NCBI GenBank assembly: GCA_041662665.1
Contig: JBAZSC010000004.1
Span: 10,464-74,463, forward strand
Origin: Patescibacteria group bacterium
GTDB taxonomy: Bacteria; Patescibacteriota; JABMPQ01; JAQVVF01
DNA length: 64,000 nucleotides
Direction: 5' to 3'
The notes under the pieces: generated by a model
Told to the model about the DNA's origin: nothing
The model's input: only the letters and a program-made list of their open reading frames with translations
Databases searched by the model: none
In this document: positions 8,726-62,349 of the stretch, one piece after another
How the letters are laid out: each line of letters starts with the position of its first letter
Position numbering within the stretch: the first letter of the stretch is position 1
Program-made: the position numbers and the translations under genes

Positions 8726-9010
8726 TCACACAAAAAACTTATCCACATCTATTTTATTTTTCTTAATTTCAATTCCTTCTTGTCTTAACAATTTTATTTT
8801 CTTTTTTAATCCTTTATTATATCCTCCAACAAAACCATCACTTCTTATCACTCTATGACATGGCACTTCTTTATTAAAATTTTTATTCAAAATATTACCA
8901 ACAGCACGATAAGCTCTAGGTTTATTTATCTTCTTTGCAATTTTTTTATAAGTAATAATTTTACCTTTTGGAATTTGCTTACAAATTTTATAAACTTCTT
9001 CTTTAAACAT
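8726..9010 (-). CDS. MGMT-family (methylated-DNA-protein-cysteine methyltransferase) DNA-binding domain protein, stand-alone C-terminal domain
   Basis: 94 aa with the PCHRVI active-site Cys motif and a helix-turn-helix region. Confidence 0.6.
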   Translation of the reverse strand: MFKEEVYKICKQIPKGKIITYKKIAKKINKPRAYRAVGNILNKNFNKEVPCHRVIRSDGFVGGYNKGLKKKIKLLRQEGIEIKKNKIDVDKFFV

Positions 9011-9083
9011 AAATTTATTATATCAAAAAAGCCTACTAAAATTGAAGTAGACTTTTTTTAAATTTTTAAAAATGATATTTAAA

Positions 9084-12501: not shown

Positions 12502-15044
12502 GTCTTTCCAAAAAATATAATATTTTAGAACAAGAACAAAAATGGCAGAATTTTTGGGATCAAAACAATATTTATAAGTTCAATTCTAGCTCAAAAAAGC
12601 CAATTTTCTCAGTTGACACTCCTCCGCCTTATGCTTCAGCAGCTCATCTTCATGTCGGCCATGCCATGTCTTATACTCAAGCCGAATTTATCATCCGTTT
12701 CAAAAGAATGCAAGGTTTTAATGTTTTTTATCCCATGGGTTTTGATGACAATGGCTTACCAACTGAAAGATATGTTGAACAAAAATACAAAATTGCTGAT
12801 AAATCAAAAATTTCTCGCGAAGAATTTATTCAATTATGTTTAAAAGAAACCAAAGAAGTTGCCAAAACTTATACTTCTCTTTGGAAATCTTTAGGCCTTT
12901 CAATTGACTGGTCTTTATTATACTCAACAATCAGCGAATCATCTCGTCGTATTTCTCAAAAATCATTTTTAGATTTATACAAAAAAGGCTTATTAGAACA
13001 TCGCGAAGAGCCAACAATTTGGTGTCCGCACGACCAAACAGCATTAGCTCAAGCAGATCTTGAAGATGCCGAAGAAAAATCTACACTAAACTATATATCG
13101 TTCGAACTTAAACACTCAAACACTGAAACACCGGAACACTCTGACGATCCGACGCTCCGACGTTCTGACGCTCTCATTATCGCCACTTCCAGACCAGAAT
13201 TATTACCTGCATGTGTAGCTCTCTATGTCAATCCAGACGATGTCCGTTACAAAAACTTAATAAACAAAACTGCCATTGTTCCATTGTTTAATTATGAAAT
13301 CAAAATAAAATCCGACCCCACTGTTGATCCAAAATTTGGGACTGGCTTAATGATGGTTTGTACTTGGGGCGACTCCGAAGATGTTGCCAAATGGAAAAAA
13401 GACAAACTAGACACTAGATTAATTTTTGATAAATCTGGCCATCTTAATGAATGGGCAAAAACTTATCAAGGCTTAGATATAAAAACAGCTCGCACAAAAA
13501 TTTTAGAAGATTTACAAAAACAAAATCTTTTAGTCAAACAAGAAGATATTACTCATGTTTTAAATGTTCATGAACGTTGTAAAACTCCTGTTGAATTTTA
13601 TTTAACTAAACAATGGTTCATTAAAATTTTAGACAATTTAGAGGATTTTAAAAAACAAGGAAACAAAATAAATTGGTTTCCGCTCTTCATGAAAAAGAAA
13701 TATGACACCTGGCTAGATGGCTTAAAATGGGATTGGAATATTTCAAGAGAGCGCTATTATGGCGTCCCATTTCCAGTTTGGTATTGCAAAAAATGTCATG
13801 AAATAATTTTACCTGACGAAAAAGATTTGCCAATTGATCCATTACAAGATCAACCAAAACATCCTTGCCCAAAATGCCAATCGGAAGAATTTGTTCCAGA
13901 AAAAGATGTAATGGACACATGGATGACATCATCATTGACTCCACAAATTAATTCTCATTGGCAAGAACAAGATGAAAACAAAAAACTTTATCCAATGTCT
14001 TTACGGATTCAAGCTTTTGAAATTATCAGAACTTGGCTTTTTTATACAGTTGTAAAATCTTGGTACCATGAAAAAAAATTACCATGGCAGGATGTTATGA
14101 TTTCAGGCCATGGCTTGGATGAACAAGGCCGAAAGATTTCTAAATCATTAGGCAATTATGAACCAGTTGCTAATATAATTAAACGCTATGGTTCTGATGC
14201 TCTGCGTTATTGGTCAGCTGGATCAAATTTAGGAAATAATTTGAGATATAAAGAAGAAGAAGTCAAAGATGGCAAAAAATTAATCACCAAATTATTCAAC
14301 GCTTCAAAATTTAGCTTAATGTTTTTGCAATCCGTCAATCCGTCCGACTTTAAGAACTTTATGAACTTTAAAAACTTTCAACTTCAACCTCTTGATCAAT
14401 GGATATTAAGTAAACTTCAAACAACAATTAAAAACGTTACTGAACATTTTAACACGTACGAGTATTCAAAAGCCAAAAAAGAAGTTTACAACTTTTTCTG
14501 GAAAAATTTTGCTGATAATTATATTGAGCTTGCAAAATCAAGACTTTACAATGATGAAAACAAAGTAGCTAAAACATCAGCTCAAGCAACATTATATATT
14601 TGTTTAATAAATATTTTAAAAATGTTCGCGCCAATCTTGCCTCACATCACTGAAGAGATTTGGCAAGCGTTGCGAGAATTAAACAACGAAACAAAAAAAC
14701 AAGAAAACAGTCCAACTATCGAACAATCAATTCATATTAGTGCTTGGCCAAAAGTTGATAAAAAATTAGTTAACGAAAAGCAAGAAAAACTTGGTGATCA
14801 GATTGTCGAAATTTTAGCCGAAGTCCGAAAAACAAAATCGAATACTAATCTTGCAATGAATAAAGAAATCAAAGAAATAATTATTGATTCTAAAGAAAAA
14901 GATTTAGAAAAATTCTTTCCAGATCTAGCCAATGCCACACATGCCGAACAAATTTCATTTGGCACTGGCGATCTTCACCCTACGAGTGACCACCCGAAGG
15001 GTGGGAAAATTTCTGAAAATCTTAAAATAAAAATTGTTTTGTAG
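12495..15044 (+). CDS. valS: Valyl-tRNA synthetase (class I aaRS; Val assignment from the PPPYAS...HVGHA motif)
   Basis: HIGH region PPPYASAAHLHVGHA and KMSKS region KISKSLGN; 849 aa. Contains in-frame repeat-derived inserts at 13137-13176, 14332-14386 and 14962-15003. Confidence 0.75.
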   Translation: MSSLSKKYNILEQEQKWQNFWDQNNIYKFNSSSKKPIFSVDTPPPYASAAHLHVGHAMSYTQAEFIIRFKRMQGFNVFYPMGFDDNGLPTERYVEQKYKIADKSKISREEFIQLCLKETKEVAKTYTSLWKSLGLSIDWSLLYSTISESSRRISQKSFLDLYKKGLLEHREEPTIWCPHDQTALAQADLEDAEEKSTLNYISFELKHSNTETPEHSDDPTLRRSDALIIATSRPELLPACVALYVNPDDVRYKNLINKTAIVPLFNYEIKIKSDPTVDPKFGTGLMMVCTWGDSEDVAKWKKDKLDTRLIFDKSGHLNEWAKTYQGLDIKTARTKILEDLQKQNLLVKQEDITHVLNVHERCKTPVEFYLTKQWFIKILDNLEDFKKQGNKINWFPLFMKKKYDTWLDGLKWDWNISRERYYGVPFPVWYCKKCHEIILPDEKDLPIDPLQDQPKHPCPKCQSEEFVPEKDVMDTWMTSSLTPQINSHWQEQDENKKLYPMSLRIQAFEIIRTWLFYTVVKSWYHEKKLPWQDVMISGHGLDEQGRKISKSLGNYEPVANIIKRYGSDALRYWSAGSNLGNNLRYKEEEVKDGKKLITKLFNASKFSLMFLQSVNPSDFKNFMNFKNFQLQPLDQWILSKLQTTIKNVTEHFNTYEYSKAKKEVYNFFWKNFADNYIELAKSRLYNDENKVAKTSAQATLYICLINILKMFAPILPHITEEIWQALRELNNETKKQENSPTIEQSIHISAWPKVDKKLVNEKQEKLGDQIVEILAEVRKTKSNTNLAMNKEIKEIIIDSKEKDLEKFFPDLANATHAEQISFGTGDLHPTSDHPKGGKISENLKIKIVL

Positions 15045-20355: not shown

Positions 20356-20452
20356 ATCTCAAATTCCAAACAAATACCAAATCACAATACACAAAGATTT
20401 TTGGAATTTGGAATTTGGAATTTGTTTGGGATTTGGAATTTGGGATTTTAAT
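20344..20452. repeat. Long inverted repeat, caaattccaaa family
   Basis: tacaaatctcaaattccaaacaaatacc... pairs with ...ttggaatttggaatttggaatttgtttgggatttggaatttggg. Confidence 0.7.
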
Positions 20453-21023: not shown

Positions 21024-21162
21024 ATCAAGAATTATGATTAGAATTATGAATTACTGAATAACGATTTTTTTAATTTTCATAATTCTCAATTCAATATTCA
21101 AATCATCATTCATAATTCATCATTCATAATTCATAATTCATAATTCATAATTCATAATTCAC
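21010..21162. repeat. Imperfect inverted oligo-repeat (gaattatga / tcataattc words)
   Basis: gaattatgaatcaagaattatgattagaattatgaatt lies opposite (cataattcat)n x about 6. Confidence 0.6.
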
Positions 21163-34871: not shown

Positions 34872-35246
34872 GTGGAACAATCAGAAGGATACGCGATCTT
34901 TGATTTTAATTTAGATCCTTCAAAAAGAAGTAAATGGTCAACTGGTTCTTTTCTTGAACCAAATTCTCCATTCTTTTCAAAACATGTAGAAATCGGAATT
35001 AGCCAACGCAATTCACAATCGCGACCAGACTCTCAACATTTTCACCGCGAAACCAAAGAATTTTATTTGGTTATTTCTGGACAACTTGTTCTGCAAATCA
35101 ACAATAAAACAATTATCCTAAAACCTCTTGAAATGGTTGTTGTTTTACCTAATTCAATTCATGCAGTAATAAAAGCAGTTGATGACACAAAATTCATTGT
35201 CATCAAATCACCTTCGGGACTTAATGACAAAGTAATCGTTCCCTAA
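34872..35246 (+). CDS. Cupin-fold protein (GTG start, SD-bearing)
   Basis: G(X)5HXH-like HRETKEFYLVISGQLVL and PNSIHAV cupin motifs. aaggag sits 8 nt upstream of the GTG start. Confidence 0.5.
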   Translation: MEQSEGYAIFDFNLDPSKRSKWSTGSFLEPNSPFFSKHVEIGISQRNSQSRPDSQHFHRETKEFYLVISGQLVLQINNKTIILKPLEMVVVLPNSIHAVIKAVDDTKFIVIKSPSGLNDKVIVP

Positions 35247-37073: not shown

Positions 37074-37189
37074 ACAAGAATACAAATCTACAAATAACGC
37101 TAATCTACGAATATACGAATCGTCGTATTCGCATATTCGCTATATTGGCATTATTCGTATATTCGTATTTTACCCAACAAAAAACTGTA

Positions 37190-39526: not shown

Positions 39527-40570
39527 ATGTCCACAAAACTTTCAGACTACGACTACAATCTTCCACAAAAACTAATTGCCCAAACACCAGCTTCTCCAAG
39601 AGACAAAGCACGTCTTTTAGTTTTGAATCGAAAAAATGACAAGATTTTTCATCACAAATTTTTCGAAATTGACAAATTTTTGAAAAAGGGCGATGTCATA
39701 GTTTTAAATAATACCAAAGTCATTCCAGCCAGATTATATGGCAAAAAAGAAACCGGCGGTAAGGTCGAAATTTTATTATTAAATCCTGTAGCGACAGGGC
39801 ACTGCCCTGTCGCGGTCTGGTCGTGTCTCACCAAGCCAGGCTTAAAACCAAATACTAAAATAATTTTTAATAACAAAATTTCTGCCAAAATAATTTCTCG
39901 TGAAAATGAAAAAGCAACTATAGAATTTGATTTAAACAAAAAACAATTTAACCAATTTTTAAAAAAATCTGGCAATGTCCCATTACCTCCATACATCTCA
40001 CCAAAACAAAAAAACAATAAAACAAAAAAACAATACCAAACCGTTTTCGCAAAATTTGATGGTTCTGTCGCCGCTCCAACTGCTGGTCTTCATTTCACGA
40101 ACAGATTAATCAAAAAATTAAAAAATAAAGGTATTAAATTTGAATATATAACTTTACATGTCGGTTTAGGCACTTTTCAGCCAGTCAAAGAAAATGATAT
40201 TACTAAACACAAAATCCATTCAGAATACGCTGAAATTTCTGCACAAACCGCTAAAAACTTGAACAATGCAAAGAAAAAAGGCCATCGCATTATCGCTTGT
40301 GGAACAACAGTAGTTCGAACACTCGAAGCCGCAGCAATTAACAATTTAGCAATTAAACAATTTAGCAATAATACATCAATTTTTATCACGCCAGGCTATA
40401 AATTCAAATTCGTTGACGCGATGATCACGAATTTCCATTTACCAAAATCAACACTATTAATGTTAATTTCTGCTTTTTCTAATTTAAAACAAATTAAAAA
40501 AACTTATAAAGTCGCCATAAAAAACAAATACAAATTTTATTCTTTCGGTGACGCAATGTTAATATTGTAA
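39527..40570 (+). CDS. queA: S-adenosylmethionine:tRNA ribosyltransferase-isomerase QueA
   Basis: MSTKLSDYDYNLPQKLIAQTP N-terminus typical of QueA. The start is assigned to the ATG at 39527. Carries an in-frame GC-rich palindrome at 39786-39833. Confidence 0.85.
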   Translation: MSTKLSDYDYNLPQKLIAQTPASPRDKARLLVLNRKNDKIFHHKFFEIDKFLKKGDVIVLNNTKVIPARLYGKKETGGKVEILLLNPVATGHCPVAVWSCLTKPGLKPNTKIIFNNKISAKIISRENEKATIEFDLNKKQFNQFLKKSGNVPLPPYISPKQKNNKTKKQYQTVFAKFDGSVAAPTAGLHFTNRLIKKLKNKGIKFEYITLHVGLGTFQPVKENDITKHKIHSEYAEISAQTAKNLNNAKKKGHRIIACGTTVVRTLEAAAINNLAIKQFSNNTSIFITPGYKFKFVDAMITNFHLPKSTLLMLISAFSNLKQIKKTYKVAIKNKYKFYSFGDAMLIL

Positions 40571-40582
40571 AACAAATTTTAA

Positions 40583-40618
40583 ACTAATTTTCCGACGCTC
40601 TGACGTTCTGACGCTCTG
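40583..40618. repeat. 8-nt tandem microsatellite, about 4 units of CTCCGACG/GACGCTCT
   Basis: tccgacgctctgacgttctgacgctctg. Confidence 0.7.
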
Positions 40619-40620
40619 AT

Positions 40621-40648
40621 TTTCCGAAATAAAAAAGAGCCCATTAGG
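40621..40648 (-). terminator. Terminator of island gene A
   Basis: The minus-strand RNA forms agaguccuaaugggcucu followed by U6. The identical sequence recurs at 41431-41458. Confidence 0.65.
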
Positions 40649-40666
40649 ACTCTATAAAAAAGAGCT

Positions 40667-41203
40667 TCAGTTCATCTTCATCCTGTAAGCTTCACAAACC
40701 TTGAAAGTCAGACTTCCCCGAAAATCATAATAGTTGGTAGCACGCTTGCCATTTCCATTCACTGGCAAGTTTTCATAATCGTAAAAAGTTGAATCGTCAA
40801 TGTGACTCAACGAAATCTTTCGAGCCATTTTGCGATTCACATTGATTGCAGTCATCATTCGACCCTTGTATCGCTTCGGCCGATGTCCACCGATCAACCG
40901 CTCAGCGCGACGATTGTCTTCACCAACCTTCACGCCAACAGTCAACAGATGACGCCGCCTCAAGTTCGAATAAGGAGTGCCATTCCCACGTTCACCATGA
41001 TGTTTTCCAGTCCCGGCAACAGGCTTGCCCCGAACCGGATCTCTCATCCATTCCATCACATTCTTCTTCTCTTCACGCTTCCTTTCCACTTGCTTTCGCA
41101 CTTCTTCGTCATACGACATCCTGTTCTCAATTTCTCTTCTCTGATAGTCTCTGTCAGCAGTATTCTTGTTTGCAACACAAGCAGTATCTCGATGAATGCC
41201 CAT
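40667..41203 (-). CDS. Island protein A, hypothetical (AGTGKHHG-motif family)
   Basis: Start reassigned to the ATG at 41203, preceded by ggagggaaagag (SD). The ORF-track N-terminal extension (TTG start at 41311) contains the sigma70 promoter. The product is charged and R/K/E-rich. Confidence 0.6.
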   Translation of the reverse strand: MGIHRDTACVANKNTADRDYQRREIENRMSYDEEVRKQVERKREEKKNVMEWMRDPVRGKPVAGTGKHHGERGNGTPYSNLRRRHLLTVGVKVGEDNRRAERLIGGHRPKRYKGRMMTAINVNRKMARKISLSHIDDSTFYDYENLPVNGNGKRATNYYDFRGSLTFKVCEAYRMKMN

Positions 41204-41273
41204 CTCTTTCCCTCCACGCGCCTGTTTTTCCAGGCTGTTCGTCCCTCCACGACACCAGAAAACAGAATAAAAC

Positions 41274-41301
41274 ATTATATCACAACCATATAATTTGTCA
41301 A
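41274..41301 (-). promoter_or_regulatory. Canonical sigma70-type promoter of island gene A (TTGACA-N16/17-TATAAT)
   Basis: The minus strand reads ttgacaaattatatggttgtgatataat. Confidence 0.65.
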
Positions 41302-41378
41302 GATTTTTCAATATTTAAGCTTATTTAAAACAAAAAAACTACAAACATTTCCGAAAATCTGACAATCAGAAGCTCAGA

Positions 41379-41428
41379 AGTCTGACGCTCCGACGCTCCA
41401 ACGCTCCGACGTTCCCACGTTCCCAAAT
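41379..41428. repeat. 8-nt tandem microsatellite (CTCCGACG)n, about 6 units
   Basis: gtctgacgctccgacgctccaacgctccgacgttcccacgttccc. Confidence 0.7.
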
Positions 41429-41430
41429 AA

Positions 41431-41458
41431 AAAAGAGCCCATTAGGACTCTACAAAAA
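41431..41458 (-). terminator. Terminator of island gene B (identical to that at 40621-40648)
   Basis: aaataaaaaagagcccattaggactct. Confidence 0.65.
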
Positions 41459-41477
41459 GGTACAAATTACAAATAGT

Positions 41478-42248
41478 TCAATCGAATACAACTGGTACGA
41501 ACCCACCCTGATTGTGCCAAGGCATATGCTCTCCCATCGCAAATCCGAAAGGATCTTCAAACCGACGATCTTCCAGATCCTCAATCTTTGGAACCTTCCA
41601 ATTCGAACTCCGATCTGTAACAACTCGATTCAGCTTAGGATCGAACATTCTGAATTGAAGCCCATCTTGACTGAAAAGATCCGCATTGAAATGGATTCCT
41701 CCATTCCTATCTTCTGCATCTTCATCTTCATCATGTTCATCAAACTGCTCAAAACTCTTCCCATCAGAAGAATTGTCATCATCTTCACAATCGTCTTCAT
41801 CCTTATCATTCACATCATCAGCACAAATGTAAGCAACAGCCGGTTCAGGCACATCGTTGATAGTCTTTTTCTTTGAAATGGCCACAAGTTCCTCAATCGT
41901 AACCTGATGCTCTTCCCTGAATTGCCGATCGATCTCAGCTTCCCATTCCTGAATGGTCGAATCATCAGCTTCACTCAAAGTCATCTTCCTCAAAACCAGA
42001 TCACGATGTTCACTTTCCATATCATGCACACCCTTCGGCTGTTTCGTTCCAATCAACCTTGTTCCACACTTCAAACGAATTGTACAAGTTGATTCACCTT
42101 GTCCAGAATCACCATGATGCTTTCCAGTTCCAGCAATTGGAAAACCCCTTTCCGGAGCAATGTAAGTTCGCTTCTCCCCTTTCTCTGCAAGTTCGTTCAG
42201 CCTCATCGTATGATAAACACGCTTCTGATCCTTGGACAACCGAGCCAT
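41478..42248 (-). CDS. Island protein B, hypothetical paralog of A (AGTGKHHG motif) with a long poly-acidic tract
   Basis: Start reassigned to the ATG at 42248, preceded by gcggagggaaagagaa (SD). Shares RGFPIAGTGKHHGDSGQG and RLIG with protein A. Contains the acidic stretch DDVNDKDEDDCEDDDNSSD...DEHDEDEDAED. Confidence 0.6.
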   Translation of the reverse strand: MARLSKDQKRVYHTMRLNELAEKGEKRTYIAPERGFPIAGTGKHHGDSGQGESTCTIRLKCGTRLIGTKQPKGVHDMESEHRDLVLRKMTLSEADDSTIQEWEAEIDRQFREEHQVTIEELVAISKKKTINDVPEPAVAYICADDVNDKDEDDCEDDDNSSDGKSFEQFDEHDEDEDAEDRNGGIHFNADLFSQDGLQFRMFDPKLNRVVTDRSSNWKVPKIEDLEDRRFEDPFGFAMGEHMPWHNQGGFVPVVFD

Positions 42249-42372
42249 TTCTCTTTCCCTCCGCGCCACCAAAACTTCTTGTTTGGTGGTCGTTTTCCCG
42301 CTTTTTTCTCTTGCGGGTCCCATCGATCTCGTACCCAAAATAACATAGAACTAACCAGAAATATAGCATTTT

Positions 42373-42401
42373 ATTCTATCATTAAAAAATAAAAATGTCA
42401 A
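42373..42401 (-). promoter_or_regulatory. Sigma70-type promoter of island gene B (TTGACA-N17-TAGAAT)
   Basis: The minus strand reads ttgacatttttattttttaatgatagaat. Confidence 0.6.
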
Positions 42402-42467
42402 TAGAAATCAAAAATACCAACTTTTTGGCTTTAAAAAGACAAGAAAAATATCATAAATTTGAGTGGT

Positions 42468-42546
42468 GGCGTTCTGACGATCCAAAGCTCCCACGCTCCG
42501 ACGCTCCGAAAGTCCCACGCTCCGACGCTCCCACGTCCCACGTTCC
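42468..42546. repeat. 8-nt tandem microsatellite, about 9 units (CTCCGACG/CTCCCACG)
   Basis: gttctgacgatccaaagctcccacgctccgacgctccgaaagtcccacgctccgacgctcccacgtcccacgttccc. Confidence 0.7.
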
Positions 42547-42548
42547 CA

Positions 42549-42580
42549 AATAAAAAAATGGCATCAAAGCCATTAAATAA
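42549..42580 (-). terminator. Terminator of island gene C
   Basis: The minus strand forms aatggctttgatgccatt followed by T7. Confidence 0.6.
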
Positions 42581-42587
42581 AGAACAA

Positions 42588-42941
42588 CTACAACTTTTTT
42601 GCTTCTACTCTTCTTTCAATTTCTCGCCTTACAGCCGACAACACACCTTGAGGCATCAGCTTCGAATCAAAATTCGTCCAACGAAAAATTTCAAAACCTA
42701 CTTTGATTTCACCCAAAGCAATCACTTCTCTCGCAATTTCCAACCTTTTCTGCAAATAATCCAAATCTTCCTTTCTGCACCATCCTCTCCTTTCAAATCC
42801 AAATTCATCAAAACCCCAGTCTGCCAAAACATCATCTGGATGATCAAAAAAATCTGTTTTGTGATCACCCTCGAAAGGATAAAAAACAGTACCACGCCTA
42901 ACAAAAATATCATTCAATGCATACTTCCGACCCTTATCCAT
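42588..42941 (-). CDS. Island protein C, hypothetical 117 aa
   Basis: Strong SD aaaggagagg 5 nt from the ATG; a 7-bp GC hairpin in the leader. No recognisable domain. Confidence 0.55.
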   Translation of the reverse strand: MDKGRKYALNDIFVRRGTVFYPFEGDHKTDFFDHPDDVLADWGFDEFGFERRGWCRKEDLDYLQKRLEIAREVIALGEIKVGFEIFRWTNFDSKLMPQGVLSAVRREIERRVEAKKL

Positions 42942-42994
42942 TTCCTCTCCTTTGCCTGTCTCCCCCTTTTGACAGGCTTTTTTTGCACCTTAAA

Positions 42995-43022
42995 AGTATA
43001 TCAAAATTTTTCATAAAGTCAA
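42995..43022 (-). promoter_or_regulatory. Sigma70-type promoter of island gene C (TTGACT-N16-TATACT)
   Basis: The minus strand reads ttgactttatgaaaaattttgatatact. Confidence 0.55.
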
Positions 43023-43052
43023 TATTATATTATAATCATAATATCAAAACCC

Positions 43053-43081
43053 TTGACTTTAAATAAAAAAGATATTATAAT
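43053..43081 (+). promoter_or_regulatory. Sigma70-type promoter of island gene D (TTGACT-N17-TATAAT), divergent from the gene C promoter
   Basis: ttgactttaaataaaaaagatattataat, followed by the SD aagggggg 5 nt before the ATG at 43118. Confidence 0.6.
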
Positions 43082-43117
43082 CAACCGTTCGTTCTCTTGA
43101 CAACAAGGGGGGAAAAA

Positions 43118-43918
43118 ATGCCTCCATTCAGCCAAACAAGATTAAATATCAACAAAATGCTTTTTGAACGAAAATGGTTTCAAAATACTGATGCTAATAT
43201 CGTTCAAAAACTCTTCAATTTGCCTGAAGCTTGTAATGGTTTTTTGGAAGATCTAGCAATTCGTCCTGAACAAATTGGCAAATGGACACTTTCCAAAATC
43301 TCTGAAATCTTCATTCCATTCAATGAACGTGCCTGGAACATTTACATCGTTTTTGAAATCAAAAATCAGAATGATGAAATCAGTCATTTCCAATACCATT
43401 CTTGGCAAAAAGGACCTTCGTCTGGAGTCAAAGGCATTGTTTTGATCAAAGATAAGACTTCTGGAAAAATCTCACACTTTGTTTTATTACAAGGCTATAA
43501 ATTTGGAGCAGGAGTACTAACTTTCGATTGTATTGGTGGCTTTGCTGAAGATGGTGAAGAAAATGAAGCCGGAATGACACAACGATTCCGCACTGAAATG
43601 AAAGAGGAGCTGGGACTTCCAACCTTGCCTCCTCATCAAATTGTTTCTCTTGGCAGATTTAATCCAGATGCTGGGATTTCCAATAACAGACCTTTCTTGA
43701 TGGTTGCAATTGTTTCTTCTGAACATTTGCCATACATCGAAACATCAAATCTCCCTAATCCAAGCACATTTGAAAACGTTGCAAAAATCATTGTTCCAGT
43801 TTCCGAACTTGCAAGATTTGTTGACAATTGCGAAGACTCGTTCTTTCATGTCTGCATTACCAGACTTTTAGCCAAAGGCATTACTCTTTCCACCAGCCCC
43901 ATCTCAACTCACCCTTAA
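43118..43918 (+). CDS. Island protein D, hypothetical with a degenerate Nudix-like box in its C-terminal half
   Basis: GGFAEDGEENEAGMTQRFRTEMKEELGL approximates the Nudix box GX5EX7REUXEEXGU with a one-residue shift. Start at the ATG after the G-rich SD. Confidence 0.45.
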   Translation: MPPFSQTRLNINKMLFERKWFQNTDANIVQKLFNLPEACNGFLEDLAIRPEQIGKWTLSKISEIFIPFNERAWNIYIVFEIKNQNDEISHFQYHSWQKGPSSGVKGIVLIKDKTSGKISHFVLLQGYKFGAGVLTFDCIGGFAEDGEENEAGMTQRFRTEMKEELGLPTLPPHQIVSLGRFNPDAGISNNRPFLMVAIVSSEHLPYIETSNLPNPSTFENVAKIIVPVSELARFVDNCEDSFFHVCITRLLAKGITLSTSPISTHP

Positions 43919-43934
43919 GTGAGTTTTTTTATTC
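43903..43934 (+). terminator. Terminator of island gene D
   Basis: actcacccttaagtgagt followed by T7. Confidence 0.6.
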
Positions 43935-44101
43935 CTTGTCAACCGTAATGCCTTCAAAATTTAGTTTCAAAAATTAAGGGATTTAGAAAATAAGAAAATT
44001 AAAATAAATTCATATCATATTTTTAAGGCATGAAGGTTGAACAAAAAAATCGCAATAGCGATTTAATTTAGAGTTATTTAAATAAATAAAAGTTTATTTT
44101 T

Positions 44102-45469
44102 TCAATTTTCTTTTTCCGTTTTCAATTTTGTAATAATCATCAAAGCAATAATCAACCAAAATAAAATTGACAAATCATTTTTAAAATACGGCACATCAAC
44201 AATACCATGCATAATTATACAAACCATCGCACCCATCAAAGCAATTTCCAATTTCCAATTTCCAATTTCCAATTCTCCCATCCCAGTTTGTAATTTGTTG
44301 TTTGTAATTTGTTTGTTTTTTTGTTCTTTTGTTTTTTTGTTTTTTTCAAAACCTTGCCAAAAGAATAAAACTAAAATCCAAACAAAAGAAATTAATCCGA
44401 GCACCCCCGTCTCCACCCAAAAATTCAAAATAATATTATGCGGATAAACTAAAATTTCAGTATGCTTATTTAATTTATAATTTGGATAAGCTTTTTGAAA
44501 TCCAGCTAAACCAGCTCCAAAAATTGGATTTGCTTTTATTAAATTCCATGTTCCTTCCCAAAGAACAAGTCTCACATCGCCTGAAGTTTCTTGAAAAGTA
44601 ATAATTGGCACCACTTTTTTTGAAGTTACTGGAACTATCAAAATAGAAATTATCGAAACAATCGCCAGTCCAACCACCCACCATCTGAATTTCGTAAACA
44701 TCAGCATAAAAAACAATCCGATCAAAATTCCAAAAATCGCACCCTTAGACACAGCCAAGACAACTGCTATTACTCCTGCTAAAACAACCAAACAATAAAA
44801 CAATAAAACAAAAATCGACACAATTTGTTTTCTTGTTTTATTGTTTTCTTGTTTCATGCCGACAATCAACCCACTAAACAATACAACTATTGGTGCGACA
44901 TATAAACCGATCGCATTTGGATAATCAAACACGCTCGTTGCTCGTTTTAAATTTGGCAAATTATAATCTACTGGAATATTAATATTAAAAATGTATTGAA
45001 TAATCGCATAAACAGAAATAACTAATGATGACAAACCTAATGCCCACAAAATTAAATTTAATTGCTTTTTAGATCTTAAGACATCAAGCAAAATTAAAAA
45101 AACTAAAATTGGTTCTACAAAATATGCTCTAAATCTTCCCAAAGCATGTTTAAAATCAGCCGAAACAAAAACTGAAATTATCGCAGCCAGCAAAAATAAC
45201 AAAATTGGCAACCACCATTTTTTCAACAGTTCTCGCCAATTCGCAACAGTCTGCTTTATCTCTTTATTTAAAATCTTCTTAACAACAAAAATTAGAGTTA
45301 AAACTAATACCATCAATTCCAAAAATGTTGACGGCAATGGCCCAAGATTAAATCTCAACAAATACAATGGCATGGCAAAGACAACTAGACTTAATCCAAT
45401 ATCAACTCTTCGCCAACAAATAATGGCGTAAATAATCAATAGTGAAAATACAATAATTATGTTTAACAT
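44102..45469 (-). CDS. O-antigen ligase / Wzy-like polytopic membrane protein with an in-frame repeat insert
   Basis: 10-12 TM helices in Wzy_C-like topology. The repeat at 44243-44310 is translated in frame as KQITNNKLQTGMGELEIGNWKLEI. Confidence 0.55.
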   Translation of the reverse strand: MLNIIIVFSLLIIYAIICWRRVDIGLSLVVFAMPLYLLRFNLGPLPSTFLELMVLVLTLIFVVKKILNKEIKQTVANWRELLKKWWLPILLFLLAAIISVFVSADFKHALGRFRAYFVEPILVFLILLDVLRSKKQLNLILWALGLSSLVISVYAIIQYIFNINIPVDYNLPNLKRATSVFDYPNAIGLYVAPIVVLFSGLIVGMKQENNKTRKQIVSIFVLLFYCLVVLAGVIAVVLAVSKGAIFGILIGLFFMLMFTKFRWWVVGLAIVSIISILIVPVTSKKVVPIITFQETSGDVRLVLWEGTWNLIKANPIFGAGLAGFQKAYPNYKLNKHTEILVYPHNIILNFWVETGVLGLISFVWILVLFFWQGFEKNKKTKEQKNKQITNNKLQTGMGELEIGNWKLEIALMGAMVCIIMHGIVDVPYFKNDLSILFWLIIALMIITKLKTEKEN

Positions 45470-45518
45470 AAACTCAAAGCACTAATTTCGTTAAAAGCTT
45501 CTAAGGTCGCTTTTAACT

Positions 45519-45626
45519 CCTAAACAAATTCAAAACTCAAATTTCAAATTCCAAAACATTGACGACGAGTTTTGAAAATTTTGATTTTGAGCATTTAGAT
45601 TTGTTTAGAATTTAGGATTTAGGATT
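45519..45626. repeat. Long inverted repeat (caaattcaaaa / tttggaattt-type words)
   Basis: Left arm cctaaacaaattcaaaactcaaatttcaaattccaaaac pairs with right arm gagttttgaaaattttgattttgagcatttagatttgtttagaatttaggatttagg. Confidence 0.65.
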
Positions 45627-45634
45627 TTCTAAAA

Positions 45635-48146: not shown

Positions 48147-48258
48147 AAATCTCAAATTACAAACAAATCTCAAATCACAAAGATACAAACTTTAAATCCT
48201 ATTTTGTAATTTGTCTTTTGTAATTTGTTTGGAATTTGGAATTTGGAATTTTCGTAAC
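48147..48258. repeat. Long inverted repeat, caaattccaaa family, overlapping the 3' end of the 48192-49766 gene
   Basis: Left arm ctcaaattacaaacaaatctcaaatcacaaag; right arm gtaatttgtcttttgtaatttgtttggaatttggaatttggaatt. Confidence 0.7.
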
Positions 48259-51467: not shown

Positions 51468-51477
51468 TTATAAGCAC

Positions 51478-51700
51478 TGTCATCCTGAACCGCAGTGAAG
51501 GATCCCGTTGCTAAATAAATAATCACGGGATTCTTCGGCTTCGGCCTCAGAATGACAATATCTAAAAATATATTTTTCTAAAAAAATAAAAACAGATATT
51601 GGCAAAAATTATTTTTTTCTGAAGGCGAGGATTGTCTGAGCCCCGAACCGCAGTGAAGGGGCGAGTTCCGCAGCCTGAAGAAAAAAATAATTTTTGACAA
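51478..51700. other. Two GC-rich structured elements sharing gaaccgcagtgaagg, separated by an AT-rich spacer
   Basis: tgtcatcctgaaccgcagtgaaggatcccgt...acgggattcttcggcttcggcctcagaatgaca and ctgagccccgaaccgcagtgaaggggcgagttccgcagcctgaag. Confidence 0.4.
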
Positions 51701-51725
51701 TCAACACAAAACATCTTTTTCAACA

Positions 51726-54446: not shown

Positions 54447-54585
54447 TAATCAATTACCAATAATCAATAAATAATCAATTTCCAATAACTAAATAATCAA
54501 TAAAATCGTCGCAATTTTGATTATTAAATTATTGGTTATTGGTTTTTTACTGATTATTGAAATTTGATTATTGGTTATTTAAGCC
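54440..54585. repeat. Inverted oligo-repeat (aataatcaat / attgattatt words)
   Basis: aataatcaataatcaattaccaataatcaataaataatcaatttcc... lies opposite ...ttgattattaaattattggttattgg. Confidence 0.6.
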
Positions 54586-55671: not shown

Positions 55672-55790
55672 TTCACAATTACCAATTTACAATCAATTAA
55701 TCAATGATCAATAATCAATTTTCGACGAAGTTTTGTAAATTGTAAATTAGTAAATTTATTGAAAATTGATAATTGGTAATTGAAAATTAA
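55655..55790. repeat. Inverted oligo-repeat (caattatcaat / attgataattg words)
   Basis: caattatcaattcacaattaccaatttacaatcaattaatcaatgatcaataatcaatt lies opposite aaattgataattggtaattgaaaatt. Confidence 0.55.
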
Positions 55791-57960: not shown

Positions 57961-58452
57961 TCAGGAAATCGCCGAACTGATTGTGTTAGCAAGATAACTA
58001 AAACGCATAGGCAACAAATAACTTCCTCTCGGATTTTTCGCAAGATGCTCTTTCGCCTCCATAATATGTAGAGTCCACACTGCAACACTCGGAACATTCA
58101 AGGGCTTTATCCATTCAATTAGCTCCTCAACGGAAATTGCATACTTCTTCCTCTCGCAAAAATAATTCGATAAATTAGGCAAAAATCGCCTATGACTATT
58201 ATGATTATCACGATCACTTGCGACAGCAAAATAAATGTTTCTCGAAGATTGCACATTTCTCACAATACCAAAACCGATCAATCCACAAGGTGACTTCACT
58301 GCATTTGTCCACTCAATAACCAGAATAGTTCCAGAACTAACAATTTCATTAACCGTATCATCAGTCAATAATCTTTCTAAAAATCCACGAACCGGCATTT
58401 CTTCTAAATGCAACATTACTTGTTCTGTTCCACCTTTAAACATCGTCACCAT
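57961..58452 (-). CDS. Hypothetical protein, paralog A2 (tandem paralog of 58490-58954)
   Basis: Start at the MVTMFKGG ATG at 58452, preceded by aaaaaggaggaagaca. Shares about 45% identity by eye with the upstream paralog. Confidence 0.55.
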   Translation of the reverse strand: MVTMFKGGTEQVMLHLEEMPVRGFLERLLTDDTVNEIVSSGTILVIEWTNAVKSPCGLIGFGIVRNVQSSRNIYFAVASDRDNHNSHRRFLPNLSNYFCERKKYAISVEELIEWIKPLNVPSVAVWTLHIMEAKEHLAKNPRGSYLLPMRFSYLANTISSAIS

Positions 58453-58489
58453 TGTCTTCCTCCTTTTTCCTATGAAAAGCAATCAAGAA

Positions 58490-58954
58490 TTATAATGCCG
58501 AATTAATTGGATAAATACAAAAACGCAATGGAAGAAAGCTATCACTACGACCAGAAGAAGATTGTTCTTTTGCTTCCATAATATGATACGCCCATATATC
58601 AGCTGCAGGAATATTCAATGGCTTTATCCAATCCATTAATTCATCAACAGAAATTCCGGTCATTTTCCTATCGCAACAAACTTTATTAATTGCAAAAAAC
58701 TTACCTTCTCCTTGATCCTTTGCACCAGCAAAAAATACATTTTTTGAAGTTTCCATATCTCGTAAAATTCCAAACCCAATCATTCGACAAGGCCTTTTTA
58801 CTGCACTCGTCCATTCCAAAACCAAGATAGTTCCATCACTAACAATTTGATCAACTACGTCATCTCTCAATAATTTCTCCAAAAATTCACGAACTGGCAT
58901 CTCTTCAAAACGTCTTTCCAATTCTTCTTCAGTCCCTTCAAACATTGTTACCAT
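58490..58954 (-). CDS. Hypothetical protein, paralog A1
   Basis: Start at the MVTMFEG ATG at 58954, preceded by aaaaggaggagaaaagaca. Conserved blocks EEMPVR.FLE.LL.DD, GTILV.EWT.AVK.PC..IGFGI and HIMEAKE. Confidence 0.55.
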   Translation of the reverse strand: MVTMFEGTEEELERRFEEMPVREFLEKLLRDDVVDQIVSDGTILVLEWTSAVKRPCRMIGFGILRDMETSKNVFFAGAKDQGEGKFFAINKVCCDRKMTGISVDELMDWIKPLNIPAADIWAYHIMEAKEQSSSGRSDSFLPLRFCIYPINSAL

Positions 58955-59110
58955 TGTCTTTTCTCCTCCTTTTCTGCGAACGATAATTTTTAAAGAGCAT
59001 TTTTCAATATATAATAAACTGAACAAAAAAACAAGACTAAAACCTTGTCTTTGTGTAACTACAAATTTTAGATTGCCAAAAGGCTTAAGTAAGATTAAAA
59101 TAACAATATT

Positions 59111-59198
59111 GGAGAGGTGCCAGAGAGGCCGAATGGGCTGGTCTCGAAAACCGGTATGCCCGAAAGGGCATCGTGGGTTCGACTCCCACCCTCTCCGC
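59111..59198 (+). tRNA. tRNA-Ser (anticodon CGA)
   Basis: GGAGAGG acceptor stem; anticodon loop CTCGAAA; long variable arm GTATGCCCGAAAGGGCATC; T-arm GTGGGTTCGACTCCCAC; discriminator G. Confidence 0.85.
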
Positions 59199-59310
59199 CT
59201 TCGCCCGCCGAAGCTTTAGCAAAAGCGAAGGCGGGATAGTCAAATACACGAATCAATGTTTCTGTTTTTTCTAATTCACGGGCGGGCTTCGGCGGACAAA
59301 GTCCGTTAAG
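59196..59310. repeat. GC-rich palindromic elements (CCGCC-GAAG...GAAG-GGCGG family) abutting the tRNA-Ser 3' end
   Basis: cccgccgaagctttagcaaaagcgaaggcggg and cgggcgggcttcggcggacaaagtccg. Confidence 0.6.
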
Positions 59311-61626: not shown

Positions 61627-61660
61627 AAAAATAAAAAAGACCAAATCAATTGGTCAAAAC
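61627..61660. terminator. Bidirectional terminator
   Basis: gaccaaatcaattggtc flanked by A-runs and T-runs. Confidence 0.5.
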
Positions 61661-62349
61661 GCACTATGGGTGCATTCACAAGGATCTTTATGACAATTAT
61701 GACAGCCATTGCCATAATATTTCAAAACAACTGCCTCCAAATCAATATTCAATAAATTTGCAATTGCAATCGTCCAAGCTAATGTATCAGCTAATTCCAA
61801 TGCAAATTCTTTTTCCATCTCATCTAAAGTTAAACTTCTTTCAGGAATTCTCATCAACAGTTGCAACAACTCGCTAATCTCTTTAAACAAACGATTCAAA
61901 CAGTTTTCTAAACCTTTCTGCTCATTCCTTTTTCCATAAATCTCTTTCATTGAAGCACACCATTCTTTTAAAGTCCATTCCATCTGAACCACAAAATCTA
62001 TAACAGCATCAGGATCGTAAGACAATTTTGGATCCAATCTCCTTTCCGAACATTTGCATGATTTTTGCAAACAATAACTGCAAACACCTCTTGGATATTT
62101 TCTTGCCATATATTCCACCAACGGCAATTTCCAAAAATGGTTAGCAACGCAGAAAATCCTTGCTACTACACTTGCCAATTCTTTTTCAACATCACCATTT
62201 TTTCGAATTGCATCCTGCAAATTTCCGATTCCAACATTCAAAAAATTAATTCGCGCAGACAAACTTGGCAAAAATATTCTGTTGCGCCTTTCATAAAGTC
62301 CCCAAAAATGAATCATCAAATCCTGCAAACTTCTCTCTTCTTTTTCCAT
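61654..62349 (-). CDS. MazG-like nucleotide pyrophosphohydrolase with Cys-rich (CxxC) insertions (SD-bearing)
   Basis: Two MazG-like EExxE/D helices (EFALELADTLAWTIAIANLLNIDLE) plus CSYCLQKSCKC and CHNCHKDPCEC. The SD gaaaaggaggagaaaggg precedes the ATG. Confidence 0.45.
   Translation of the reverse strand: MEKEERSLQDLMIHFWGLYERRNRIFLPSLSARINFLNVGIGNLQDAIRKNGDVEKELASVVARIFCVANHFWKLPLVEYMARKYPRGVCSYCLQKSCKCSERRLDPKLSYDPDAVIDFVVQMEWTLKEWCASMKEIYGKRNEQKGLENCLNRLFKEISELLQLLMRIPERSLTLDEMEKEFALELADTLAWTIAIANLLNIDLEAVVLKYYGNGCHNCHKDPCECTHSAF

What the first reader, a model, noticed from the sequence alone, without database searches (positions are those of the whole stretch)
40580..43935. GC-rich, SD-bearing, sigma70-promoter-bearing 3.3-kb island of unknown function between queA and the glycan cluster
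About 45% GC versus about 28% in the flanks, with GC-ending codons (GAC, CGC, AAG). All four genes have strong purine-rich Shine-Dalgarno sites (ggagggaaagag-ATG twice, aaaggagagg-ATG, aagggggg-ATG), whereas the flanking core genes (gap, gdh, ruvB, valS, tsaD, yidC, pilB) have none. Each gene also has a near-consensus E. coli-type promoter (TTGACA-N17-TATAAT, TTGACA-N17-TAGAAT, and divergent TTGACT-N16-TATACT / TTGACT-N17-TATAAT). Every gene is closed by its own hairpin-plus-U-tract terminator. None of the four products (179, 256, 117 and 266 aa) has a function I can assign. The island has the hallmarks of recently acquired DNA from an SD-using, higher-GC donor and is the strongest candidate here for an undescribed system. 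The Nudix-like gene D is divergently paired with the small gene C, which is a layout seen for modification/de-modification or toxin/antidote pairs; that reading is speculative.
Basis: partly seen in the sequence, partly recalled or inferred. Interest (0 to 1): 0.8.

Follow-up and report, generated by a model that had tools for sequence, protein, structure and literature searches.

The report
GC-rich islet: Nudix gene plus orphans
A real 3.3-kb GC-rich patch in a low-GC Patescibacteria (CPR) genome holds four separately transcribed genes, one a Nudix sugar-nucleotide hydrolase that probably serves the neighbouring glycan cluster and three lineage-only orphans, and nothing shows they form one new system.

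Summary
The island has GC 0.405, against 0.309 ± 0.015 elsewhere. It is the strongest tetranucleotide outlier in the window. It holds 4 of the window's 8 near-consensus sigma-70 promoters. Each gene has its own terminator. A, B and C have strong Shine-Dalgarno (SD) sites, which 45 of the 48 other genes lack.

It is not a mis-join: the same sequence appears in four other assemblies, two of which span both borders. It is not strain-recent either. A related genome (Wzy 83% aa identical) carries C'-D'-Wzy and B'-A' in the same order, also GC-rich.

D is not unknown. It belongs to a family of about 110 clusters. In that family, 25 of 76 members hit Pfam NUDIX, and the family profile hits NUDT5 and NudF ADP-sugar pyrophosphatases. 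Its homologues lie beside nucleotide-sugar or glycan genes in 4 of 5 other genomic contexts, and never beside A, B or C.

A and B are tandem paralogues (shared motif P-x-R-G-x-P-[VI]-A-G-T-G-K-H-H). C is an orphan. All three are known only from this organism and one relative, and they have no functional hit.

Their promoters and hairpin-plus-SD leaders are better conserved than their coding sequences.

Verdict: an islet of autonomous, moron-like accessory cassettes. It is not a demonstrated four-gene system. Interest is moderate to low.

The parts
40667..41203 (-). Gene A, 178 aa. It is basic (pI 10.1), highly charged, and a paralogue of B. It carries the motif PVRGKPVAGTGKHHG...RLIG...LSHIDDST.
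   Evidence: ORF and called gene. BLASTP against B gives 2e-11. Against the partial orthologue A' in L007, nucleotide identity at codon positions 1, 2 and 3 is 0.68, 0.70 and 0.34, which indicates coding sequence. pI. No hit in Pfam, PHROGs, NCBIfam, PADLOC, PDB, phages or plasmids.
41204..41301 (-). Promoter of A (TTGACA-16-TATAAT, 41274-41301) and its roughly 65-nt leader. The leader has a hairpin at 41220-41235, followed by GCGUGGAGGGAAAGAG and the ATG.
   Evidence: The stretch from the -10 element to the ATG is about 93% identical to the relative (5 differences in 75 columns, read from the alignment), while the CDS is about 57% identical.
40594..40653 (-). Terminator of A (hairpin AGAGTCCTAATGGGCTCT plus a T-run, 40636-40653), followed by an array of 8-nt units (GACGCTCT, 40594-40619).
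   Evidence: The 70 nt at 40591-40660 are 84% identical to 41389-41458, behind gene B.
41478..42248 (-). Gene B, 256 aa. The N-terminal part is basic (residues 1-100, pI 9.3) and carries the AGTGKHHG motif. The rest is very acidic (pI 4.2, a D/E-rich stretch).
   Evidence: The orthologue P0004 in the relative is 49-54% identical and lacks the motif-bearing N-terminus. The AlphaFold model is mostly unstructured, pLDDT 39.6.
42249..42401 (-). Promoter of B (TTGACA-17-TAGAAT, 42373-42401) and its roughly 118-nt leader. The leader has hairpins at 42298-42316 and 42264-42292, followed by GCGCGGAGGGAAAGAGAA and the ATG.
   Evidence: Between window and relative the stems are conserved and the loops vary. 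The upstream and promoter block is 87% identical.
41366..41451 (-). Terminator of B (the same hairpin as A, 41434-41451), followed by an 8-nt array (GACGCTCC, 41366-41423).
42588..42941 (-). Gene C, 117 aa, an orphan.
   Evidence: The only match among 5.8 billion clusters is itself, named by NCBI 'MAG: hypothetical protein WC663_05825, Patescibacteria group bacterium'. A partial orthologue in L005 is 49% identical over 41 aa. No family, PDB, phage or plasmid hit.
42942..43022 (-). Promoter of C (TTGACT-16-TATACT, 42995-43022) and its leader. The leader has a hairpin at 42954-42977 directly 5' of AAAGGAGAGGAA and the ATG.
   Evidence: z = -4.1, 0 of 200 shuffles fold as well. The hairpin plus SD is 85% identical in the relative.
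42476..42574 (-). Terminator of C (42557-42574), followed by the longest 8-nt array (42476-42548).
   Evidence: The terminator hairpin is identical in the relative L007, and an array follows it there too.
43053..43117 (+). Promoter of D (TTGACT-17-TATAAT, 43053-43081), divergent from the C promoter, and a short leader carrying AAGGGGGG.
   Evidence: The -35/-10 block is 77% identical in the relative, where the SD is AGGAGG.
43118..43918 (+). Gene D, 266 aa. It is a Nudix-superfamily protein of the ADP-sugar pyrophosphatase (NUDT5/NudF) type, with an N-terminal extension of about 85 aa.
   Evidence: Exhaustive HMMER search found 109 clusters. 25 of 76 members hit PF00293, best 1e-10. The family profile hits NUDT5 at 4e-4, and more weakly AraR, NudF and MutT. 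One family member is named 'ADP-ribose pyrophosphatase YjhB (NUDIX family)' by JGI. Codon-position identities of 0.72, 0.85 and 0.60 against the orthologue indicate coding sequence.
43906..43935 (+). Terminator of D. The hairpin overlaps the stop codon and is followed by a T-run.

Best explanation
The region is a small compositional islet. It consists of four autonomous, strongly signalled single-gene transcription units (promoter, hairpin leader, SD, gene, terminator). It was already present in the common ancestor of at least two Patescibacteria species. It is a collection of accessory cassettes, not one system.

**Gene D.**
- Shown: D is a Nudix-superfamily protein of the ADP-sugar or NDP-sugar pyrophosphatase type.
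- Inferred: it hydrolyses a nucleotide-sugar or ADP-ribose-like substrate, and so trims the precursor pool for the adjacent Wzy/PMT_2/VTT glycan cluster.
- Inferred: functionally it belongs to that cluster rather than with genes A to C.
- Inferred: it reached this SD-poor, roughly 31% GC lineage from a higher-GC, SD-using Patescibacterium as a self-sufficient, moron-like unit.

**Genes A and B.**
- Shown: they are a tandem duplication of a whole cassette, including the terminator and the 8-nt array. They encode a fast-evolving, lineage-restricted, highly charged and probably largely disordered protein with a basic Gly/His/Arg motif.
- Speculative: they bind nucleic acid. They may bind their own conserved leader hairpins, which would explain why promoter and leader are better conserved than the coding sequence.

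**Gene C.** It is an orphan with no lead to function.
For: - The anomaly is real and the assembly is sound.
- The islet is shared with a relative in the same order. Protein identities are Wzy 83%, D 66%, B 54%, A 53% and C 49%. Raised GC is kept in both lineages.
- D is assigned to the Nudix superfamily.
- D homologues sit next to glycan or nucleotide-sugar genes. FdtA is the neighbour in two contexts (L011; L016-18, which also has PMT_2 and an RmlC-like gene). UDPGP is adjacent in L014. Three GT2 genes, an epimerase and an NTP-transferase lie within 1.4-6 kb in L013. Only L009 lacks such genes.
- The D family occurs in two modes. It is operonic and host-like in GC in a 38% GC, SD-using genome (L016). 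It is a GC-rich unit with its own promoter, hairpin, GGAGG and terminator in a 31% GC, SD-poor genome, at an unrelated locus (L009).
- No A, B or C relatives lie near D homologues.
- A and B are paralogues, and their 3' modules are duplicated.
- Regulatory DNA is better conserved than coding DNA.
- Morons are defined as independent transcription units of deviant composition (PMC3594210).
Against: - No mobility gene, att-like direct repeat or adjacent tRNA marks the borders, so acquisition is inferred from composition alone.
- The raised GC persists in both diverged lineages. Selection could maintain it, rather than it being a relic of transfer.
- D itself does not reach Pfam NUDIX. Its Nudix box has a spacer 4 residues longer than canonical, and Thr in place of the box Arg, so catalysis is unproven.
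- The link to glycan genes was not tested statistically, and CPR genomes are rich in such genes.
- Both structure models were too poor to use, with pLDDT 43.8 and 39.6.
- Nothing speaks directly to the function of A, B or C.
Confidence: 0.55

Rival explanations
1. The genes are native and lineage-specific, not transferred. Selection for very high or tightly set expression maintains the raised GC, G-rich codons, SD sites, consensus promoters and hairpin leaders. These features allow SD-dependent initiation with a stabilising 5' hairpin in a genome that otherwise uses leaderless or AT-rich initiation.
For: - The islet is shared and syntenic in a diverged relative, and the GC offset is kept in both lineages.
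- Promoters and leaders are under stronger constraint than the coding sequences.
- The 8-nt arrays behind each gene are the GC-rich form of a repeat type found throughout this genome, including inside valS.
- There are no mobility genes and no att sites.
- The host has other SD-led genes.
Against: - High expression alone therefore does not raise GC here.
- The D family shows the same GC-rich, self-contained unit at an unrelated locus in another low-GC genome, but is host-like in a 38% GC genome. That pattern is what transfer predicts.
- A, B and C have no relatives outside one narrow clade.
Confidence: 0.25
2. The four genes form one functional system, for example anti-phage defence, toxin-antitoxin, or a nucleotide or ADP-ribose modification and de-modification pair built around the Nudix protein D and the small protein C.
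For: - C and D have divergent, adjacent promoters, and this arrangement is conserved in the relative.
- Nudix domains occur in some conflict systems (own knowledge).
- The A, B and C proteins evolve fast, as expected for conflict genes.
- The location next to a surface-glycan cluster is a typical flexible region (own knowledge).
Against: - No PADLOC, Pfam, PHROG or NCBIfam hit for any of the four.
- Each gene has its own promoter and terminator, unlike typical toxin-antitoxin or defence operons.
- D-family genes in 5 other contexts never have A, B or C relatives nearby.
- D's closest structural relatives are metabolic ADP-sugar pyrophosphatases.
Confidence: 0.1
3. A degraded prophage or plasmid remnant. 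Genes A to C would be phage morons or orphans left behind after the rest of the element decayed.
For: - The layout matches a moron: an independent promoter and terminator with deviant composition (PMC3594210).
- Orphan status is typical of phage genes.
Against: - No PHROG hit.
- No relative in IMG/VR by pattern scan plus tblastn.
- No tblastn hit in 50,697 phage records or 72,556 plasmids.
- No integrase and no att repeats.
- Both flanks are core or glycan genes.
Confidence: 0.08
4. An assembly chimera that joins DNA from a higher-GC organism into a Patescibacteria contig.
For: Only the abrupt change in composition.
Against: - Sequence identical across both junctions was recovered in independent assemblies from different samples (ERZ27249449 and SRR18595301).
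- SRR6484324, JGI Ga0172379 and the NCBI MAG also carry identical island sequence.
- A relative carries the C'-D'-Wzy junction.
- Host-type 8-nt arrays lie inside the islet.
Confidence: 0.02

Closest known systems
ADP-sugar / ADP-ribose pyrophosphatases of the Nudix superfamily (human NUDT5; bacterial NudF/YjhB type)
   Same: - The profile of D's family hits NUDT5 chains over about 125 residues, E = 4e-4 to 8e-4. NudF and MutT follow at non-significant E-values of 0.07-0.15.
- 25 of 76 family members hit PF00293.
- D keeps the GGF...E...ExxEExG core: E160, E163, E164 and G166.
- D has the downstream D-x-G-[MLI]-[ST]-N loop, which aligns with DPGLSN of NUDT5.
   Different: - D alone does not reach the Pfam model.
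- The spacer inside the Nudix box is 4 residues longer than canonical.
- The box Arg is Thr in D and in its orthologue.
- An extra, mostly helical N-terminal region of about 85 aa has no match.
- The substrate is unknown.
Nudix hydrolases encoded inside glycan clusters, e.g. E. coli NudD/WcaH (GDP-mannose mannosyl hydrolase) in the colanic-acid cluster (own knowledge)
   Same: A Nudix enzyme is placed beside polysaccharide polymerase, glycosyltransferase or nucleotide-sugar genes. D-family genes neighbour Wzy_C/PMT_2, FdtA, RmlC-like, UDPGP and GT2 genes.
   Different: - There is no detectable specific sequence relationship to NudD. The best matches are of the NUDT5/NudF type.
- In this window D is an independent, GC-rich transcription unit, not part of the cluster's operon.
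Phage 'morons' (PMC3594210)
   Same: - Each is a single gene flanked by its own sigma-70 promoter and intrinsic terminator.
- Composition differs from the surrounding DNA.
- Each is apparently added between resident genes.
   Different: - The islet is not inside a prophage.
- It has no phage homologues.
- It is conserved across a species-level split.
NrtR/AraR-type Nudix-related transcription regulators
   Same: The AraR Nudix domain (5bs6) is among the hits of the family profile, E = 0.0024.
   Different: Those regulators carry a C-terminal winged-helix DNA-binding domain. D has no such domain and instead has an N-terminal extension. D also keeps the three box glutamates.

Membership tests
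Nudix superfamily (PF00293), for gene D | Significant sequence similarity to the family model or to solved members | tested here: met
   D alone gives no Pfam hit at E <= 1. By transitivity the feature is met: D matches 109 clusters, down to E = 6e-59 for the nearest non-identical one. Of 76 aligned members, 25 hit PF00293, best 1e-10. The family profile hits NUDT5 at 4e-4, with NudF and MutT below significance.
Nudix superfamily (PF00293), for gene D | Nudix box GX5EX7REUXEEXGU | tested here: inconclusive
   D has G141-x5-E147, then 11 residues instead of 7, then T159 in place of Arg, then E160-M-K-E163-E164-L-G166-L167. The family consensus is [RKT]-E-[LI]-x-E-E-L-G. The glutamates are kept. 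The spacing and the Arg deviate.
Nudix superfamily (PF00293), for gene D | Alpha/beta/alpha Nudix fold | tested here: inconclusive
   The AlphaFold model has pLDDT 43.8. Its secondary-structure order (strands, helix 150-165 over the box, strands) is compatible with the fold, but the model is unusable for a fold search.
ADP-sugar pyrophosphatase subfamily (NUDT5/NudF) | Pyrophosphatase activity on ADP-ribose or an ADP- or NDP-sugar | not testable with these tools
   This needs an enzyme assay. The only support here is the best PDB matches, a JGI annotation of one family member, and neighbourhood to nucleotide-sugar genes.
Phage moron | Independent transcription unit (own promoter and terminator) with deviant base composition | tested here: met
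Phage moron | Located within a phage or prophage genome | tested here: not met
   The flanks are queA and a Wzy/PMT_2 glycan cluster. There are no PHROG hits and no phage or IMG/VR relatives.
Integrative genomic island / mobile element | Integrase or transposase, flanking direct repeats, or a tRNA target | tested here: not met
   No such genes lie in or next to the islet. No att-like direct repeats bracket it. The nearest tRNAs are at 9083 and 59111.
Toxin-antitoxin or known anti-phage defence system | Match to known component families, and co-transcribed, co-occurring partner genes | tested here: not met
   PADLOC, Pfam and NCBIfam give nothing. Every gene has its own promoter and terminator. 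D homologues elsewhere lack A, B or C partners.
Integron gene cassettes | attC recombination sites, an integron integrase, and promoter-less cassettes | tested here: not met
   Each cassette has its own promoter. What follows each gene is a terminator plus tandem 8-mers, not an attC-like imperfect palindrome. No integrase is present in the window's neighbourhood.
Known cis-regulatory RNA (riboswitch or leader) for the A, B and C leaders | Match to an Rfam covariance model | tested here: not met
   No hit at gathering thresholds. Only chance-level hits (E >= 0.33) appear in the permissive scan of 40500-44100.

The most novel reading that the evidence does not exclude
Genes A, B and C, and D in its autonomous form, could represent a class of self-sufficient expression cassettes that spreads between Patescibacteria chromosomes. 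Each cassette would consist of a consensus promoter, a stabilising hairpin, a strong SD, a GC-rich gene, a terminator and a short-repeat array. A and B would found a new protein family (P-x-R-G-x-P-[VI]-A-G-T-G-K-H-H) that binds nucleic acid and autoregulates through its ultra-conserved leader. Their role would lie in symbiont-host or phage conflict.
Probability: 0.12. Interest if true: 0.6.

Novelty: new member of a known kind. Interest (0 to 1): 0.35.

Why it matters
If the reading is right, it removes a candidate 'new system'. What remains is three smaller points.

- **A glycan-linked Nudix subfamily.** There is an uncharacterised Nudix subfamily of about 110 clusters, largely from Patescibacteria-type genomes. 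It is repeatedly linked to nucleotide-sugar and glycan genes. It is a tractable candidate for control of surface-glycan precursors in episymbiotic bacteria.
- **Genes that carry their own expression signals.** An SD-poor, AT-rich CPR genome hosts genes that bring their own SD-based expression signals and keep them for a long time. That bears on how translation initiation works in these organisms, and on how transferred genes get expressed.
- **Regulation conserved above coding.** A, B and C are orphans whose regulatory DNA is better conserved than their coding DNA. This is an unusual pattern and worth a transcriptomic look.

None of these points is yet a surprise at the level of a new mechanism.

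Tried and rejected
**Searches that found nothing for A, B and C.**
- Family searches of all four proteins (Pfam, PHROGs, NCBIfam, PADLOC) gave nothing significant.
- PDB sequence searches for D alone, the A/B profiles and C gave nothing significant.
- The word-indexed search of 5.8 billion clusters found only self and one relative for B, C and D.
- Pattern scans of GTDB species genomes with the D and A/B motifs found nothing. The seeds reach only close relatives.
- The metagenome scan with the A/B motif found only the identical sequence.
- IMG/VR scans for B and C found nothing.
- The leader 17-mer gave 27 hits in IMG/VR. I judged these to be chance, and none encodes an A to D relative.
- tblastn of A, B and C against phage and plasmid collections gave no match.

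**Structure and RNA attempts.**
- Structure prediction of D (2-sequence alignment) and B (3-sequence alignment) gave pLDDT 43.8 and 39.6. I therefore ran no fold searches, since they would be meaningless.
- Rfam gave nothing at gathering or permissive thresholds.
Only single-sequence folds are available.

**Readings considered and dropped.**
- A diversity-generating retroelement (DGR) target: the differences between the A and B repeats are not adenine-specific, and no reverse transcriptase gene was seen near the islet.
- An integron: there is no attC site and no integrase.
- A Walker-A P-loop or AMP-binding loop reading of AGTGKHHG: the spacing does not fit and the domain is too small (sequence inspection).
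- Similarity of the motif to ribosomal proteins uL15 or bL27: this is only a low-complexity resemblance recalled from memory, with no search support.
- An in-frame upstream TTG extension of B: the peptide is poorly conserved while the RNA stems are conserved.
- Strains with the exact queA or Wzy protein but no islet: none are on record.

Full report
**1.

The window is about 31% GC. The stretch 40580-43935 is 40.5% GC. The A-C part is 42.2% and the D part is 36.0%. In comparison, 216 other windows of equal size give 30.9 ± 1.5%, with a maximum of 34.7% (profiles).

The islet is also the largest tetranucleotide outlier, at z = 8.9. It remains an outlier after normalising for base composition, with r = 0.65 against 0.80 ± 0.05.

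The four genes are:
- A, 40667-41203(-), 178 aa;
- B, 41478-42248(-), 256 aa;
- C, 42588-42941(-), 117 aa;
- D, 43118-43918(+), 266 aa.

Their GC3 values are 0.47, 0.37, 0.32 and 0.31, against 0.14-0.34 for the other 48 genes I scored.

A, B and C carry GGAGG or AAGGAG-type Shine-Dalgarno (SD) sites. D carries a G-run. Only 3 of the 48 other genes have any such site: a cupin, a MazG-like protein and one weak case.

Four of the eight promoter matches in 64 kb that reach at least 11 of 12 positions lie in this 3.3 kb, one in front of each gene. Each gene is followed by a hairpin-plus-T terminator, and the A and B hairpins are identical.

- A is 178 aa, not 179.
- The promoter spacer of A is 16 nt.
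- The GC contrast is 40.5% against 31%, not 45% against 28%.

**2. It is not an artefact**

The same sequence was assembled at 100% identity in four other data sets:
- ENA ERZ27249449, 10.6 kb, from the bPH-domain gene and queA through the islet to Wzy_C, PMT_2 and VTT;
- Logan SRR18595301, 6.3 kb, from upstream of queA to 44175 inside the Wzy gene;
- Logan SRR6484324, 3,049 bp, which starts inside gene A (41127) and so crosses only the right border;
- JGI Ga0172379.

Gene C's product is also in an NCBI MAG labelled 'Patescibacteria group bacterium', on a 136-kb contig.

**3. It is not strain-recent**

Sample SRR22388014 holds a relative. Contig L005 has C'(partial)-D'-Wzy in the same arrangement. 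Contig L007 has the C' terminator, an 8-nt array, B', and then A'(partial).

Protein identities to the window are Wzy 83%, D 66%, B 54%, A 53% and C 49%.

Identity by codon position shows real coding constraint:
- D: 0.72, 0.85 and 0.60;
- A: 0.68, 0.70 and 0.34.

The GC offset is kept in the relative. There, B' is 0.43, A' is 0.44 and D' is 0.36, against 0.29 for Wzy'.

The islet therefore predates a species-level split. No record of the exact queA or Wzy protein shows a context without the islet.

**4. Gene D is a Nudix protein**

D alone hits nothing in Pfam. The exhaustive HMMER search found 109 clusters, mostly full-length proteins of 240-300 aa.

Of 76 aligned members, 25 hit PF00293 NUDIX, best 1e-10. 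The family profile hits human NUDT5 ADP-sugar pyrophosphatase at E = 4e-4 to 8e-4. It then hits the Nudix domain of AraR, and more weakly NudF and MutT. JGI names one family member 'ADP-ribose pyrophosphatase YjhB (NUDIX family)'.

D keeps E160, E163, E164 and G166 of the Nudix box, and the downstream D184-A-G-I-S-N-N loop that aligns with DPGLSN of NUDT5. However, the box spacer is 4 residues longer than canonical, and the box Arg is Thr. Activity is therefore likely but unproven.

The AlphaFold model was too poor to use, at pLDDT 43.8.

**5. Where D-family genes live**

| Context | Neighbours |
|---|---|
| L011 | FdtA (sugar isomerase) is the next gene |
| L016, L017, L018 | FdtA is the next gene (17-nt gap); PMT_2 upstream; an RmlC-like isomerase downstream |
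| L014 | UDP-glucose pyrophosphorylase is adjacent |
| L013 | three GT2 genes, an epimerase and an NTP-transferase within 1.4-6 kb |
| L009 | DUF3352 genes on one side and rpsO-pnp on the other; no glycan genes |

With the Wzy/PMT_2/VTT cluster here, this points to a role in nucleotide-sugar metabolism for glycan synthesis. I did not test the association statistically.

No relative of A, B or C lies near any of these homologues, or elsewhere in the window. D is therefore not part of a conserved A-B-C-D unit.

**6. Two modes of the D family**

In L016 the host is about 38% GC and neighbouring genes use SD sites. There, D's homologue has host-like GC (0.37) and sits in an operon.

In L009 the host is about 31% GC and SD-poor. 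There, the homologue is 45.8% GC and has all of the following, at a locus unrelated to ours:
- TTGACA-17-TATAAG;
- a GC-rich leader hairpin;
- GGAGG;
- its own terminator.

This is what transfer of a self-sufficient single-gene unit from a higher-GC, SD-using Patescibacterium would look like.

**7. Genes A, B and C**

A and B are paralogues (BLASTP 2e-11). They share P-x-R-G-x-P-[VI]-A-G-T-G-K-H-H-G, then R-L-I-G, then L-S-x-x-D-D-S-T. The terminator plus array behind each is also duplicated (70 nt, 84% identical). The whole cassette was therefore duplicated in tandem.

A is basic, with pI 10.1. B has a basic N-terminal part and a very acidic remainder. The AlphaFold model of B is essentially unstructured. 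The B orthologue in the relative has lost the motif-bearing N-terminus.

All searches returned only self and the one relative:
- 5.8 billion clusters;
- GTDB genomes, by motif;
- JGI metagenomes, by motif;
- IMG/VR;
- phage and plasmid records by tblastn;
- PDB;
- four HMM libraries.

Their function is unknown.

**8. Regulatory DNA is better conserved than coding DNA**

| Element (window against relative) | Identity |
|---|---|
| A unit, -10 to ATG | about 93% |
| A coding sequence | about 57% |
| B upstream and promoter block | 87% |
| C hairpin plus SD | 85% |
| 8-nt arrays (unit number and sequence vary) | 29-53% |

The 27 nt before B's ATG are 26 of 27 identical, and the C terminator hairpin is identical.

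In A, B and C the leader ends in a GC-rich hairpin 2-4 nt before an exposed SD. The C hairpin folds with z = -4.1. In the B leader the stems are conserved while the loops vary.

Rfam has no match. With two genomes, covariation cannot be tested. The attempt at a joint alignment fold gave nothing.

I read the hairpin-plus-SD design as a stabilising, high-expression leader. Autoregulation by the basic A and B proteins is a speculation that would explain the conservation.

**9. No hallmarks of a mobile element or a known system**

There is no integrase, no transposase and no adjacent tRNA. No direct repeats bracket the islet. Defence-system models give nothing.

The 8-nt arrays are the GC-rich flavour of a repeat type present in most intergenic regions of this window. 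A 34-nt stretch inside valS is 91% identical to the array behind gene A. The islet's non-coding DNA is therefore partly of the host's own type.

**10. Verdict**

The 'recent' acquisition, the single 'undescribed system' and the C/D toxin-antidote idea are not supported.

The best description is an old islet of autonomous, moron-like accessory cassettes. It contains a glycan-linked Nudix hydrolase and three lineage-restricted orphans, two of them paralogues. The main rival reading is that the genes are native and selection maintains their composition and signals.

Noticed in passing
window 11279-11360 (inside tsaD) and 13106-13181 (inside valS): Short-repeat elements sit in frame inside two essential genes.
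- In tsaD the element is AATTTCCG x3, then a GC-rich hairpin (ccgccgaagcc...gcgaaggcgg), then AATTTCC x2. It adds roughly 20 aa between the HIEGH and SGGHT motifs.
- In valS, period-8 units of the GACG[AC]TCC type encode ...TETPEHSDDPTLRRSDAL....
- The valS copy is 91% identical over 34 nt to the array behind island gene A.

This is reminiscent of Rickettsia palindromic elements inserted in coding genes (own knowledge).
   Followed up: partly
window, most intergenic regions, e.g. 477-521, 20400-20448, 21076-21161, 37126-37169, 44242-44274, 45470-45634, 48203-48251, 54447-54578, 55672-55786: Nearly every intergenic region carries tandem arrays of 7-8-nt units. The unit sequence differs from locus to locus (TTTGGAA, TTCATAA x12.6, AATATCCG, TATTCGCA, CAATTTC and others). 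The arrays often form two inverted arms around a short centre such as tcgacgaag. L009, from another Patescibacterium, shows the same kind of arrays. Their origin and function are unknown.
   Followed up: partly
window 59200-59300, 11306-11343, 51468-51725: GC-rich palindromes recur in an otherwise 31% GC genome. One type is ccgccgaagc/gcgaaggcgg and another is of the form gaaccgcagtgaagg. One set lies directly after tRNA-Ser (59111-59199).
   Followed up: no
window 61654-62349(-) and 34872-35246(+): These are the only other clearly SD-led genes in the window. One is a MazG-like NTP pyrophosphohydrolase (AAGGAGG, GC 0.35). The other is a cupin (AAGGAG, GTG start). They may be further acquired accessory genes.
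   Followed up: partly
window 57961-58482(-) and 58490-59026(-): Two ORFs with no Pfam hit lie next to tRNA-Ser. The first has GC 0.38 and GC3 0.34, the highest outside the islet. This may be a second small compositional islet.
   Followed up: no
window 8726-9010(-), 9256(+), 35334(+) start regions: A -10-like TATAAT or TAGAAT lies only about 5-20 nt before the ATG of several core genes. Most other starts are preceded by A/T-rich tracts without an SD. This suggests leaderless or very short-leader, SD-independent initiation as the default in this organism.
   Followed up: no
L007 322-930 against window 41478-42248: The B orthologue in the relative has lost about 50 N-terminal residues, including the AGTGKHHG motif. 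It keeps the identical SD and leader, and the ORF stays open in frame upstream to a TTG in both genomes.
   Followed up: partly
L016 7239-7604: A gene with weak Avd and 23S_rRNA_IVP matches lies 3.5 kb from a D-family gene in another Patescibacteria contig. Avd is the accessory protein of diversity-generating retroelements. No reverse transcriptase was seen in the part fetched.
   Followed up: no
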